Source: Octopus vulgaris
Lineage: Eukaryota
NCBI GenBank assembly: GCA_951406725.2
Contig: OX597826.1
Coordinates: forward strand, 45,880,001-45,944,000
Direction of reading: 5' to 3'
DNA: 64,000 bases
Within the stretch, counting starts at the first letter, position 1. Each line of letters begins with the position of its first letter. Shown here in pieces: positions 2,205 to 55,550 of the stretch. Below the pieces are notes generated by a model. The model saw only the letters and a program-made list of their open reading frames with translations. It was not told the origin of the DNA and did not search any database. The position numbers and the translations under genes are program-made.

Positions 2205-2966
2205 TAAGTAATTAAGGGTTTAGCAACGAATTGCCTCACCAACACACCGAATTTAGAAATAGCAGTCAAAGAGATATAGCTATTCCTTCTACTAAAAGGA
2301 GATCTCAGTAAAAACACAGCACTTGAAAGGCAAACACAGACAGGTAAGAAAGAATGAAATGACGGCAATCTATCATACAATTTTAAGTTACCTACGGACG
2401 TACGTTTCGAAATCAAGTTTTAGGAAAGCATAAGAATTAGAAAATTCTCCCTTACCCAAACTTCTTTTCTCATCGGCGTAGGATACTACAATTATGAATA
2501 ATTGTATATTAAATTTTGAGATACTAGAAGGCATTATCTCAACTCAGTGAGATACTAATGCCTTCTAGTATCTCAAAATTTAATATACAATTATTCATAA
2601 TTGTAGTATCCTACGCCGATGAAAAAGAAGTTTGGAGAAATTTTCTAATTCTTATGCTCTAAAACTTGATTTCAGCGTACGTCCGTAGGTAACTTAAAAT
2701 TGTATGATAGATTGCCGTCATTTCATTCTTTCTTACCTGTCTGTGTTTGCCTTTCAAGTGCTGTGTTTTTACTGAGATCTCCCTTTTGAGAAGGATAACT
2801 ATATCTCTTTGACTACTAAAAATTCGGTGTGTTGGTAGGTAATTCGTTGCTAAACCCTTAATTACTTAGTATTACTTAAATTTTCCTCGAATGAGGCTTT
2901 TACATGCCGAAATCTACTTGGTGTAATTAATAATTATTCCAAATTAATTAGTTTCACCCTTTATTG
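2205..2966. mobile_element. Fold-back element (arms ~2205-2540 / 2549-2868, single-copy tail to 2966) in (AT)n; HHR-bearing, Penelope-like non-autonomous type
   Basis: The ~330-bp arms are reverse complements (taagtaattaagggtttagcaacg ... cgttgctaaacccttaattactta). (AT)n flanks both sides. Homologous to the elements at 48487 and 55113. Confidence 0.85.
2391..2482 (-). ncRNA. Type I hammerhead-like motif with CCGAUGA core variant
   Basis: Minus strand: cctacg-CCGATGA-gaaa...tttc-GAAA-CGTACG-TC-cgtagg. 6-bp stem I, palindromic stem III, GUC triplet. The right-arm copy has lost GAAA. Confidence 0.7.
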
Positions 2967-2985
2967 TATATATATATATATAGAT

Positions 2986-3120
2986 AGATTAATCAGCCGA
3001 AATTGCGAAGATGATCCGGTTCTTGACTGAAGATTAAAGGCTTCGAATGTCCCGTTCGTGTTTTTTGTGTCGTCTTCTAAATGTTTCACGTTCTTGTCCC
3101 AGTTTGTATTTTTTTACTTT
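2986..3120 (+). mobile_element. 5'-truncated copy of permuted-HHR family 2
   Basis: agattaatcagccGAAAttgc...tcttgaCTGAAGAttaaaggct matches 37505-37690(-) and 53392-53620 but lacks the UH strand. Confidence 0.75.
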
Positions 3121-4299
3121 TACACACACACACACACACACACATATATATATATATATATATATATACCAAATATATACGTTTTATTTATTATTTTGCA
3201 CATTACTTAATCATCGGTATATTATTGTTATTTTATATTTAATATTTCTATTATATGTAATTTTCTAAATGGTGTAATTTAATTGTTCATTTTGAATTGA
3301 TAAAAGGTGTTTTTTTTCATTTATATATATATATATATATATATATATATATTATGTTTTATGAAATTTGATTTGGCATTTCTAAATTGAATTTTTCCCT
3401 GTAAGTTAGGAATAATATTCCCTCAAATTTTATATATATATATATATATATATATATGAGTATTTATTAAAAACTGAAACTGATAATTTCCTTTGTGACT
3501 TTTTGTTTCACACGCCACTACGATCTTCAGGCAAGAGAAGGTCACAGTGGTGTGGCATTCGAGTCGCAAGAAAAGGTATCAGTTTGAGTTTCAGTAAAAA
3601 AACCACGTCTTCTCTAACATTCATTGAGCACTCCTCCATCGTTCGCCCTACATAAACCAACGTATATGTGCATGTATGCACGCGTGTGTACACACACATA
3701 CACACACACTTGCACGCAAGGATGAACACACACACAAATAAATATGCTTAGAACACAGCTCTTAACTATTAATTAGCACCAAACATTTTACACATGTAGA
3801 CACTCGTGAATCATGCTGTCATGTGGTTATCACAAAAACAGCCATGGATGCGGAGTTAAGAACCTCGCTATGCAAAATCCTTGTTCATGAGTTCGAAAAC
3901 AAGAACTTCATCCGACGTTGTACTTTACTGCCAACCTATATGATCTCATGCCTTTCACCATCGTAATTATTAAAATGATCCCTTTTGATAAGCTTCATTA
4001 GAAATCTTACTGGAGAGGTATGTGGTGACGTCATTACTCGATTAGCAAAGCCTAGCAATTGTTTTCATATAATTTTATTAATAAGATTTTTGATGACTTC
4101 ATTACTCAATTCTAGTCAATATTTACAAAGAATTGAAAAGACCAAGATTCAAATCAAAGTATAGGCCTCTTACATGGCCATCAGATGATTTATTGAATAT
4201 GAGAGAACTTATATTAGTTGGAGAACAAAGCTGTAACTAGGTTGAAATTGTGATTTCTTGATTGCTTGACTTAGAAGTTATAACACTTATTTGAAGTTA

Positions 4300-5466
4300 C
4301 CAGGTGCATTCCAGAAGTTTTGAGACTTTTTAGGAGAAGCAGTTGAAACTGTCCTAGATGATTGTAATTTTAGTATATATTTACCATACATCTAATAAGC
4401 TGAGCCGCCAGTTTTTAATTCCAAATTCGTAGAGAGGGCTGTAACAGCACTTTGAAAAGATTTGCTTATCACAGCTATCTAGATTTCAAAATGCTGTCAG
4501 GACGTTTGAAAGCAAGCTATGCCATAAAGTTGTGTGTTAAACTGGATAAAAATGCTACAAAAACTTATGAAATGCGCTCCAGATTGCTTATGGATAACCT
4601 TGAATGAGTCGACACAAGAGGTTCAAGATCGGTAGAGAGAGGATGAAAGATGATGAGAAGTGTGGGAGGGAGCGGGACGTCAAACATCAGAGCTGGTTGA
4701 GAAAATTGGCAATTTTCTGGATGAAGACTGTCGTGTGTCGATAAAAACAATAAGCATGCTTGGAGATGGTATGACAACTGTACACAGAATTATTCATGGC
4801 GATTTGAACAAATTTGTGAAAAGCTTTTTCCCAGGTTGCTCGGTGACGCATTGGTGACAGCCAGGAAATGGTTGAGCTCATCACCTTCAATCCAAGAGTA
4901 TTTGAACCTCTGGTAACATTTGAAGAAAGTTATGATCCAGTTATGATCTACTGTTATGATCCAGAGACTATGAGGCAGACTGCCCAATGGAAGTATCATG
5001 GCTCTCCAAACCCAAGAAAGCAAAGCAAGTCCATAGGGAAGCTCATGGTGGTCCCTTTTCGACAGCAATGGCATCATCTACATCCATAGGGTTCCACCTG
5101 GTCAGACGGTCAACAAAGATTACTCTGTGGAGATTTGAAGAAGTTCAGAACAATGCATCAATCCATAATTACATCCTGGTAACCAACTATTTGTCTCTCA
5201 CCTTCCTTACAGAGCTGAATTTGTTCCCTGTGACTTTTGGTTGTTCCTCAAGTTGAAGGAAAACATCAGGAGGAGGAGTCTTGAAGACATCGAGAAGATG
5301 AAAGAGGCTGTGATAAAGGTCCAGGATACTTTCATTTTGGAGGGCTTTCATGAAGCCTTCGCGAAGTAGCCAGAGCGCTTCAACCAGTGCATTGAAGCCA
5401 AAGGATCCTGCTTTGAAGGAGATTACTGTTACTGCAAAAGTTACAAAACTTCTGAGTTGCATCTTG
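4300..5466 (+). mobile_element. Near full-length decayed mariner transposon (DD34D), transposase pseudogene
   Basis: TIRs caggtgcattccagaagttttg / caaaacttctgagttgcatcttg with TA on both sides. Frameshifted peptides YAIKLCVKL, IYCYDPETMRQTAQW, PCDFWLFLKLKE, CIEAKGSCFEGD. Confidence 0.9.
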
Positions 5467-53620: not shown

Positions 53621-53760
53621 CACACATCCTTTTCCAAGTAAATTCTCTCTCTCTCTCTCTCTCTCTCTCTCTCTATATATATATATATATATATATATAT
53701 ATATATATATATATAGGCAAACAAGAAAAATAGAACTCAAAATATGAGTATATGTATATT

Positions 53761-54266
53761 TTTATGTACATTATTTACAATTGACGGATACTTGTCCTCA
53801 TCTTGTTTGCTGTTAACACAACTTTTCGGTTGATATACCCTCCAGCCTTCATCAGGTGTCTTGGGGAAACTTTCGGTTCTCTTTCCTGGGTTCTCTTTCC
53901 TAAGGTATTTTTCGGTGTTGTTGTTGTTATCATTATTATTATTATTATTATTATTATGATGATTCAGGTCACTGCTTGGAATCGAACTCGGAATTTTGAG
54001 GTTAGTAGCCCGCACTCTTAACCACTACGCCATATGCCGTGGGTATGATAACAACAACAACAACAACAACAACAGCAACAACAACAACAACAACAACAAC
54101 ATTGAAAAATAGCTTAGAAATGAGAACCCAGGTTCGAAATTTCCCCTAGACACCTGATGAAGGCTGGAGGGTATATCAGCCGAAACAACAAAAAAGGATG
54201 AGGACAAATATCCTTCAATATTGTAAATAATGTACATAATTACTCATCTCTTAAATATAGAACTGT
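53761..54266. mobile_element. Fold-back element with a central tRNA-like head (53967-54038, -) and an HHR motif in each arm (53815-53860 -, 54149-54186 +)
   Basis: Inverted arms; gacac-CTGATGA-a-ggctg...ca(a/g)cc-GAAA..TT-gtgtt; A box TGGCGTAGTGG and B box GAGTTCGATTCC. Confidence 0.82.
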
Positions 54267-55112
54267 ATGTATATTTTTATTGATGTTTAACAGAAGTAAC
54301 AGAGTAATTCAAGGTCCCAAGAGTTTTGCATGTTAGCAGAAGTGTGCGTGCGTGCGCGTGTGTGTGTATAGATGTATGTAAGAACGTATATATGTGCTTA
54401 TGTCTATAAGTATGCATACATGAATGCTCTTGTATATATCTATGTATTTGTGTAGCCGTTGGCATTTAGTAATGATTCGTTGTAGTGTAGGCGTTGTATA
54501 CATCTGAGTTCCATGTATATATTTACAACAGCAGACATCAGTGAATTGCAGTACGCACAAGGAAGGCTATGGTATTTAGCTGGCGTGTTACAATTGATGG
54601 GGGTGTGTAAAAGGAAATGTTAAAATAATCTTACTTCATAGATTTACGTTACCGTTAATAATCTGTTTAGATATGAATGTCGATGATGTGACGGCTGACT
54701 ACAATGGTGGAAAATTTGAATAGTAAGAGGATTGAGGTTCCTGGAAATAATTTCGTTCTGATGTAAGACCGATGCTATTCGAAAAGCTTGGCACTCCGCG
54801 TAAAGTTCACTTTAGTAAATCATCAGAAACGGTTCTATCATTACCTATTAAATTAAATTCAAAGACATCTAACACTCATTTATGTCTGAACAGAGACGAA
54901 CCTTATGAACATACACTCGCACACAAATGCATACAAATACACAATCATATATATGTATGATTATATACCGATGTACGCACACATACACGCACACGCACAC
55001 ATATATATCAATTTATATATATATACATATATATATATATATGTATGTATATATATATATGTACATATATATGTATGTATGTATGTATGTATGTATGTAT
55101 ATATGTATATAT

Positions 55113-55550
55113 TATCAATAATCATAAAGGGTAAAATTAATTAATCAATTTATAATTAATAATCTTACCAAGTAGTTTTGGTATGTTAAAAGAACCATTA
55201 TCGGTAAACTTATACAAAAATTTTATAATTATAAACATAATTATAATTAGGGTTTAGCAAAATATCTTGATTACTAGTGCTCCCAAATTTATAATTGAAA
55301 TACTATACTGATGATGGAAATAAGATATGGTTAATTTTACATATCTTTAATCCTGAAACGCGTATATAGTTAATCAAAGCCGGGTGGATTCGGTATTTTT
55401 TCTTTTTGTCTGTGTGAGTTGAGAGTATTGCTATCTGGGAGATATCTTATGGTAGTAGAATAGTATTTAACTGCTACTTCTAAATTTCGGTATGTAGTGA
55501 AGCAATTTTGCTAAACCCTAATCATAATTATGTTTATAATTATAAAATTT
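55113..55550. mobile_element. Inverted-repeat element in (AT)n, homologous to 2205-2966
   Basis: Inverted repeats at 55218-55263 / 55505-55550; the left tail matches the reverse complement of 2915-2966. Confidence 0.82.
55302..55370 (+). ncRNA. Type I hammerhead ribozyme motif with canonical core
   Basis: actata-CTGATGA-t-gga..aagatatg/catatctt..tcc-t-GAAA-CGCG-TA-tatagt; predicted cleavage after 55364. Confidence 0.82.

What the first reader, a model, noticed from the sequence alone, without database searches (positions are those of the whole stretch)
2205..55550. About 14 fold-back elements share one architecture: outward-reading HHR arms, one extra 3' tail, mostly in (AT)n
Seen: inverted-repeat elements at 2205, 7352, 7721, 9020, 13556, 24248, 34347, 42735, 47106, 48287, 48487, 49256, 53761 and 55113, from several unrelated sequence families. 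Where an HHR sits in an arm, its sense strand points away from the centre, and usually only one arm continues into a single-copy tail. Most are flanked by (AT)n with no TSD. Established: Penelope-like elements (PLEs) carry minimal HHRs with palindromic stem III in their pseudo-LTRs and often insert with inverted or tandem pLTRs. Inference: a diverse population of non-autonomous PLE-mobilised, ribozyme-containing elements integrated by a two-priming/inversion mechanism at TA microsatellites. They could be mis-annotated as MITEs, and would form long dsRNA if intronic.
Basis: partly seen in the sequence, partly recalled or inferred. Interest (0 to 1): 0.8.

Follow-up and report, generated by a model that had tools for sequence, protein, structure and literature searches.

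The report
Mirror-image Penelope retroelement insertions
These are real, short mirror-image insertions left by Penelope-type jumping genes and their ribozyme-carrying hitch-hikers; the shape is already published, but the copies follow a strict end-pairing rule that hints both broken DNA ends start copying the same RNA at two fixed sites.

Summary
All 14 fold-backs are real; an independent scan finds exactly these 14. Eleven carry a hammerhead ribozyme (HHR) in the window copy or in the family, always reading outward. They are insertions made by Penelope-like element (PLE) machinery. Two (24248, 53761) are clipped 3' ends of RT+GIY-YIG-coding PLEs, not non-autonomous elements; three (2205, 48487, 49256) belong to ORF-less 588/546/496-nt tandem HHR monomers (non-LTR retrozyme type). 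'No TSD' fails for 47106 and 53761 (12-15 bp); 13556 is unresolved. Head-to-head copies with a one-sided tail are published PLE features, and this scan noted them before in two other genomes. What I did not find in print: in 56 two-armed retrozyme loci, 46 end at RNA site A on one side and site B (~100 nt further) on the other, 3 B/B, none A/A; centres differ per locus; in 19 of 46 neither arm contains the other; the two arms are usually each other's closest relatives; two joins unite different families. Best reading: concerted double target-primed reverse transcription, then joining of the two cDNA ends. No autonomous partner was found for the retrozymes; cleavage, circles and editing are untested.

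The parts
2205..2967 (.). Fold-back of the 588-nt retrozyme-type family: left arm 2205-2550 (reads -, ends at site A), right arm 2557-2967 (reads +, ends at site B; tail 2869-2967); intact HHR core at 2476 (-), damaged copy at 2616 (+); (TA)n both sides
7352..7679 (.). Older fold-back, relative of 55113/2205; arms 7420-7551 and 7557-7679, tail on the left; truncated downstream of any HHR
7721..7937 (.). Fold-back of a ~290-nt HHR family; intact HHR core 7787 (-); right arm cut inside the core; 70-nt tail 7867-7937; (TA)n both sides
9020..9291 (.). Fold-back inserted in the central (TA)n of a SINE-like copy (8813-8980 / 9292-9565); only the 3' half of an HHR; tail on the left
13187..14228 (.). 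Old fold-back without HHR or (TA)n flanks, interrupted by another repeat (13764-14149) with its own TSD; class unresolved
24248..24750 (.). Head-to-head 3' ends (pLTR) of a Neptune-type RT+GIY-YIG PLE; U3-A8 HHR variant; ~35-nt tail on the right
34349..34775 (+). Old, decayed member of a tandem HHR family with a 52-60-nt inverted arm at its 5' end; degraded HHR core at 34487 (+); right end approximate
42734..43680 (.). Fold-back of an ORF-less family with A/B ends; CTGATGA core without a completing motif; right end in (TA)n
47099..47395 (.). Fold-back of a ~230-nt family whose full copies have a G3-C8 HHR variant; 60-nt tail; 12-bp TSD at 47099 and 47384
48287..48468 (.). Small fold-back in (TA)n; HHR with a long stem III, core 48414 (-); tail on the left
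48490..49133 (.). Fold-back of the 546-548-nt retrozyme-type family; long left arm (A end) with intact HHR core 48729 (-), short right arm with ~115-nt tail (B end); neither arm contains the other
49256..50392 (.). Fold-back of the 496-nt retrozyme-type family; left arm 1.37 tandem units (B end), right arm (A end); intact HHR cores 49551 (-) and 50209 (+)
53751..54280 (.). Head-to-head 3' ends of a Penelope/Poseidon-type PLE; tRNA-like segment in the left arm, decayed HHRs at 53855 (-) and 54154 (+), ~30-nt tail, 15-bp TSD at 53751 and 54266
55113..55552 (.). Relative of 2205; short left arm with tail (B end), long right arm with intact HHR core 55308 (+)

Best explanation
The elements are single integration events made by PLE RT/GIY-YIG protein. 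The enzyme (probably a dimer; inferred) cuts both strands of AT-rich DNA, mostly (TA)n. One 3' end primes reverse transcription at RNA site A and the other at site B, 30-115 nt downstream, usually on the same RNA or RNA from the same source (linear pLTR transcript, multimer or circle). Both cDNAs run toward the RNA 5' side, stop, and are joined head-to-head, often through 2-9 nt of overlap. The 'tail' is the stretch between A and B. HHRs read outward because both outer ends are sense 3' ends. Shown: real fold-backs, PLE ORF link for two families, tandem HHR monomers for three, A/B pairing, variable centres, one TSD round the whole unit. Inferred: simultaneity, dimer, single template, circular RNA, and that PLE protein moves the ORF-less families.
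For: End pairing in 56 two-armed loci of 78 distinct loci: 46 A/B, 3 B/B, 0 A/A, 7 with an off-site end (with hand corrections); anchor A gave partner B 18 of 18, anchor B gave partner A 28 of 31, Fisher p 1e-10. Same rule by eye in 14 of 14 fold-backs of the 7721 family and 10 of 10 of the 47106 family. Neither arm contains the other in 19 of 46 (12 by more than 30 nt), which a simple snap-back cannot give. Arms of one locus are closer than arms of other loci in 29 of 39 (mean 1.3% vs 2.2%, p 1.5e-4), including five non-nested loci. Inner ends within 31 nt (modulo unit) in 24 of 53 vs 9.1 permuted; overlap of 2 nt or more in 31 of 53. Joins of different families: L003 (588+496 families), L047 (RT/EN fragment + 42735 family). 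RT-bearing copies show the same shape (L067, L068, L070, L272). TSDs enclose the whole fold-back. In vitro, a Poseidon PLE cuts and extends both strands and starts at two internal RNA sites that bound the tail (PMC11167929).
Against: No autonomous PLE sharing the A-B region of the 588/546/496-nt families was found, though only a few PLE families were sampled. 27 of 46 A/B loci are nested and fit snap-back equally well; central deletions after insertion could fake non-nesting. Arm similarity could come from gene conversion; in the youngest (496-nt) family it is not informative. Loci are the top 40-scored matches per search, so they are biased to young, long copies. Only two clear mixed-family joins; each could be a later insertion. 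PMC11167929 reports no strand preference between the two start sites, which does not by itself predict strict A/B pairing. No raw reads: no evidence of cleavage, circles or editing.
Confidence: 0.68

Rival explanations
1. One priming on RNA, then the cDNA end folds back on itself (self-priming / snap-back), is copied outward and is joined to the far DNA end at an AT-rich site. A self-priming model is proposed for rotifer PLE palindromes.
For: 27 of 46 A/B loci are nested; several centres are perfect 4-6-nt palindromes; arms are near-identical within loci. Self-priming hypothesis in PMC3846280 (passages).
Against: 19 of 46 non-nested; mixed-family joins L003 and L047; when the long arm ends at A the short arm passes A and stops at B (e.g. 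L012, L082), so the second end is not simply the first AT-rich site met.
Confidence: 0.17
2. Two separate RNA-protein complexes each prime one end of the break independently; A/B pairing comes from geometry of the two cut ends, not from one shared RNA.
For: Mixed-family joins (L003, L047, possibly L124); L003 and three same-family loci are B/B.
Against: Arms are usually each other's nearest relatives; inner ends are coupled; mixed joins are rare (1 clear in 78 retrozyme loci).
Confidence: 0.1
3. MITEs / foldback DNA transposons, or palindromes amplified as fixed units.
For: Terminal inverted repeats; short size; 13556 and 42735 lack a complete HHR.
Against: Centres differ from locus to locus, ends are asymmetric, many copies are single-armed or tandem, two families sit behind RT-EN ORFs.
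Confidence: 0.03
4. Assembly or amplification artefacts (fold-back chimeras).
For: The right arms of 2205 and 24248 carry many one-sided small deletions, which may be read errors in hairpins (recalled property of nanopore reads); the window's own 49934/49935 joint is not bridged by any listed contig piece.
Against: Arms differ by up to 15% substitutions; TSDs enclose whole units; contigs of two other public runs show many different head-to-head joints of the 496-nt family (table 5).
Confidence: 0.02

Closest known systems
EN+ PLE insertions with an inverted 5'-truncated copy and one-sided tail (Craig et al. 2021, PMC8557442, Fig. 2; Arkhipova et al. 2013, PMC3846280)
   Same: Head-to-head arrangement, tail at one end, (TA)n bias, TSDs where visible, palindromes at the joint.
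   Different: Here most units are ORF-less and 180-1100 bp; tails are 60-115 nt in five families against the published 30-40; strict A/B pairing and non-nested arms are counted.
PAc (Poseidon, Anolis) in vitro mechanism (Frangieh et al. 2024, PMC11167929)
   Same: Two internal RT start sites bound the tail; AT-rich targets; both strands cut and extended; dimer predicted.
   Different: That work does not derive inverted copies from it and leaves later steps open; the genomic A/B rule here adds a constraint.
Non-LTR retrozymes (review PMC7761336; preprint 10.64898/2026.07.22.740005)
   Same: Tandem ORF-less monomers with one type-I HHR per unit; proposed PLE mobilisation.
   Different: Described as tandem arrays or monomers; in the text I read, head-to-head copies and PLE-type two-site ends are not described.
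[quoted passage not shown]
   Same: Palindromic stem III, extra base before stem II, U3-A8 variant; pairs of motifs 100-700 bp apart on opposite strands already noted in Schistosoma.
   Different: C4 (CCGA) and G3-C8 cores are frequent here; pairs are resolved as whole insertions.
L1 twin priming (recalled, no paper read)
   Same: Second DNA end primes on the RNA, giving an inversion.
   Different: L1 arms do not overlap in sequence; here they overlap by hundreds of bases and start at two fixed sites.

Membership tests
EN+ Penelope-like element | ORF with RT and GIY-YIG endonuclease upstream of the terminal repeat | tested here: met
   Families of 24248 (13 of 14 other loci) and 53761 (4 of 6 fetched); window copies are truncated behind the ORF. 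Pfam RVT_1 and GIY-YIG on a related 781-aa ORF.
EN+ Penelope-like element | RT-EN ORF for the 588/546/496-nt families | tested here: not met
   tblastn of two PLE ORFs finds only two unlinked fragments (L085, L134) among these loci; they are non-autonomous.
EN+ Penelope-like element | Inverted 5'-truncated copy with a tail at one end | tested here: met
EN+ Penelope-like element | Tail of 30-40 bp | tested here: inconclusive
   About 30-42 nt in the coding families, 60-115 nt in the ORF-less ones.
EN+ Penelope-like element | Type-I minimal HHR in the terminal repeat | tested here: met
   Descriptor hits in 6 window elements and 2 more families; Rfam did not list a hammerhead among the 150 best rows shown; absent in 7352, 13556, 42735.
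Neptune vs Penelope/Poseidon clade | CX2-5CxxC motif before GIY-YIG (Neptune/Nematis/Naiad) | tested here: met
   Present in the 24248-linked ORF and L061, absent in the 53761-linked ORF; motif from PMC8557442. No tree was built.
Non-LTR retrozyme | Two or more tandem units, each with a type-I HHR, no ORF | tested here: met
   588-nt units (L012, 3.7 units), 496-nt (L101), 546-548-nt (L117, L133).
Non-LTR retrozyme | Self-cleavage and circular RNA | not testable with these tools
   Only contigs were available; RNA status of runs is a guess.
Non-LTR retrozyme | Homology to the pLTR of a partner PLE | tested here: inconclusive
   No match to the PLE families sampled; sampling was dominated by one family.
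MITE / TIR DNA transposon | Fixed symmetric termini and constant internal part | tested here: not met
   Asymmetric A/B ends and locus-specific centres.
tRNA-derived SINE (53761 family) | tRNA-derived head | tested here: inconclusive
   A- and B-box-like motifs by eye (recalled consensus); ARAGORN 0 genes, no Rfam tRNA match; segment is part of a PLE 3' region.

The most novel reading that the evidence does not exclude
PLEs integrate by a concerted double target-primed reverse transcription in which a protein dimer places RNA site A on one DNA end and site B on the other; ribozyme-processed circular or multimeric retrozyme RNAs use the same two-site signal, so head-to-head copies, the one-sided tail, tandem arms and mixed-family joins all come from one reaction. 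In this genome it has left roughly 130-190 short near-perfect hairpins per Mb, a large potential source of ADAR and small-RNA substrates.
Probability: 0.45. Interest if true: 0.75.

Novelty: new variant of a known kind. Interest (0 to 1): 0.5.

Why it matters
How PLEs make their tandem/inverted structures and tail is named as open in PMC8557442 and PMC11167929. The A/B rule, non-nested arms and shared-template signal turn that into a sharp in vitro test and argue against self-priming as the only route. PLE-type ends on ORF-less HHR monomers are structural support for PLE mobilisation of animal retrozymes, so far argued from co-occurrence and pLTR similarity. The density of hairpins matters for repeat annotation and, if transcribed, for RNA editing.

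Tried and rejected
Rfam on the window: only microsatellite-driven miRNA matches below gathering score among the 150 rows shown. No long host ORF recognised in the window, so intronic position is untested. My first reading of 53761 as a free-standing tRNA SINE was revised. Search for an autonomous partner of the retrozyme families through GIY-YIG hits: matches near those loci were nested insertions, not pLTRs. HHR reading of 42735 (permuted forms tried by eye) and 13556 (variant cores): none. A>G differences in RNA-guess contigs also occur in DNA runs, so no editing is shown; no cleavage-site pile-ups can be seen in contigs. True empty orthologous sites could not be compared (no relatives held); other copies of the SINE-like host of 9020 have an uninterrupted central TA/CA tract, consistent with insertion but uninformative on TSD. 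A second cluster of inner-end distances near half a unit in the 588-nt family (7 of 18) is unexplained.
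Full report
Setting. The window is G000:C13:45880001-45944000 of a 2.8-Gb genome. Its repeats look like those of an octopus; this is recalled and no tool names the organism.

Observation. A masked self-BLAST for local inverted repeats (arm 35 nt or more, spacer up to 400, identity 75% or more) returns 14 structures in the window, the same 14 as listed, and none in 40 kb of shuffled DNA. 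Arm alignments show 83-99% identity. A strict minimal type-I HHR descriptor finds 6 motifs in the 64 kb, against a mean of 0.02 in 100 shuffles; all lie in listed elements and read outward. A relaxed descriptor adds 48287 and finds U3-A8 and G3-C8 variants in other copies of the 24248 and 47106 families. For 53761, 34347 and 9020 the motif is read by eye from decayed copies or relatives. 7352, 13556 and 42735 have no complete HHR. (TA)n flanks both sides of 7, one side of 3, neither side of 4.

What the families are. Own-genome searches score only the best 40 candidates of 48 to 2851, so all counts below are from young, query-like copies. 24248 is the 3' end of a coding PLE: the GIY-YIG ORF ends about 100 nt upstream in 13 of 14 other loci, and the ORF has the CX2-5CxxC motif of Neptune-type elements (motif from PMC8557442). 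53761 is the 3' end of a Penelope/Poseidon-type PLE: the same tRNA-like, HHR and tail segment directly follows the ORF in 4 of 6 fetched copies, and L272 shows the full inverted form. 2205, 49256 and 48487 belong to ORF-less families with tandem units of 588, 496 and 546-548 nt, one HHR per unit; no linked RT was seen. The 496-nt unit folds better than all 100 shuffles (z -4.8). 7721 and 47106 belong to ~290- and ~230-nt HHR families with a recurring 5' start. 34347 is an old tandem HHR family. 13556 stays unresolved: no HHR, no (TA)n, and another copy folds back with opposite polarity. Coding PLEs are abundant, sit in (TA)n and show the same inverted form with outward HHRs (148 GIY-YIG matches of 150 scored; L067, L068, L070).

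The end rule. Of 90 loci from three searches, 12 overlapping duplicates were dropped, leaving 78; 56 have two head-to-head arms (54 called by script, plus L117 and L121 corrected by hand; the end of L029 taken). Outer ends cluster in two windows about 100-115 nt apart (A, B). 46 loci are A/B, 3 B/B (two share one junction, one has a 16-nt arm), none A/A, 7 have one off-site end. When the searched arm ended at A the partner ended at B in 18 of 18; when it ended at B the partner ended at A in 28 of 31 (hand-counted table, Fisher p 1e-10). Either end can carry the longer arm. The same holds by eye for 14 of 14 fold-backs among 25 loci of the 7721 family and 10 of 10 among 20 loci of the 47106 family. 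Centres differ per locus, so the palindromes are made at insertion, not copied as units. Contigs of two other public runs show many further head-to-head joints of the 496-nt family, though the window's own joint is not bridged by a listed piece.

Discriminating the models. In 19 of the 46 A/B loci neither arm lies within the other (12 by more than 30 nt), which snap-back copying of one cDNA cannot give without later deletions; the other 27 are nested and fit either model. The two arms of a locus are closer than arms of other loci in 29 of 39 loci with enough overlap (p 1.5e-4), including five non-nested ones, but not in the youngest family and not in the window's 2205 copy, whose right arm has 10 one-sided gaps. 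Inner ends lie within 31 nt of each other modulo the unit in 24 of 53 pairs against 9.1 after permutation; 31 of 53 joints overlap by 2-9 nt, several at short palindromes. L003 joins a 588-family arm to a 496-family arm between (TA)n tracts; L047 joins a PLE RT/EN fragment to the 42735 family. TSDs of 10 bp or more enclose 8 of 8 scored fold-backs of the 47106 family (control 8 of 56) and 12 of 15 of the 53761 family (control 16 of 210); loci whose ends did not match the anchoring patterns were not scored. So each unit is one integration event.

Mechanism. Most likely both 3' ends of a staggered cut prime reverse transcription, one at A and one at B, usually on one RNA or one source's RNA, and the two cDNA ends are joined by short overlap. 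Shown are the anatomy and statistics above; inferred are simultaneity, dimer action, circular templates and PLE-driven movement of the ORF-less families, for which no homologous partner was found.

Density. 31 fold-backs in 230 kb of flanks of other loci (135 per Mb, 17 next to TA runs) against 12 in the window by the same 1-kb method (188 per Mb). The sample is biased to repeat-rich places, so a genome total of a few hundred thousand is only a rough extrapolation.

What is known. PMC8557442 (passages) describes inverted 5'-truncated copies, a 30-40-bp tail at one end and (TA)n bias, and calls the mechanism undefined. PMC3846280 (passages) reports palindromic joints and proposes self-priming. 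PMC11167929 (main text) shows two internal start sites bounding the tail and extension of both strands. PMC4209133 (main text) reports minimal HHRs and opposite-strand pairs 100-700 bp apart. The preprint 10.64898/2026.07.22.740005 (parts 1-3 of 5) and PMC7761336 (passages) treat non-LTR retrozymes as PLE-dependent. PMC13282606 (parts 1-2 of 3) lists Penelope-like, MITE and many unclassified SINE families in an octopus without discussing these structures. Searches listed no paper whose title or abstract states the A/B pairing or head-to-head retrozymes; subscription papers and supplements were not covered. Two earlier notes of this scan report the same architecture in other genomes as ordinary.

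Verdict. Real, correctly seen, largely a known PLE signature. The added value is the counted end-pairing rule and its extension to retrozyme-type monomers with long tails, which makes an open mechanistic question directly testable.

Noticed in passing
window 53960-54045 (-); L272, L273, L275, L277; L167-L196: The 3' region of the Penelope/Poseidon-type PLE holds a tRNA-like segment (A/B-box-like by eye; no ARAGORN or Rfam call); many ORF-less copies start near its 5' edge, as if a Pol III transcript of the pLTR were moving as a SINE-like derivative.
   Followed up: partly
L061, L064 (G000:C16:20834500-20842500; C6:133343000-133351000): Abundant young Neptune-type PLE with a 781-aa RT+GIY-YIG ORF, an upstream ~480-aa ORF without Pfam match, tandem pLTRs, U3-A8 HHR-like motif and (TA)n at both ends.
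   Followed up: partly
window 19743-19831: A ~90-bp insert with a short hairpin inside the central (TA)n of another copy of the SINE-like family that hosts 9020.
   Followed up: no
window 2986-3146, 37487-37645, ~53400: Another repeat family with a CTGAAGA core preceded, not followed, by GAAA; possibly a permuted or decayed ribozyme.
   Followed up: no
L012, L138, L098, L190 flanks; window 48032-50477: Fold-backs nest in each other's (TA)n ends, forming chains of different families.
   Followed up: no
L124/L130: A 547-family arm joined head-to-head to a 5'-truncated SINE-like copy, possibly capture of a SINE RNA at the second DNA end.
   Followed up: partly
L279 (downstream of the 13556-family match): A 117-aa open frame that resembles the C-terminal part of Naiad-type PLE RTs (recalled, not tested).
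   Followed up: no
window 2557-2868 and 24487-24712: Right arms carry many one-sided small deletions not shared by other copies; decay or base-calling error in hairpins.
   Followed up: partly
588/546/496-nt families, 55113, 7352: Sites A and B are each preceded by a similar short pyrimidine-rich motif (CCCT/CCAT followed by T/A), a candidate pair of protein-binding sites.
   Followed up: no
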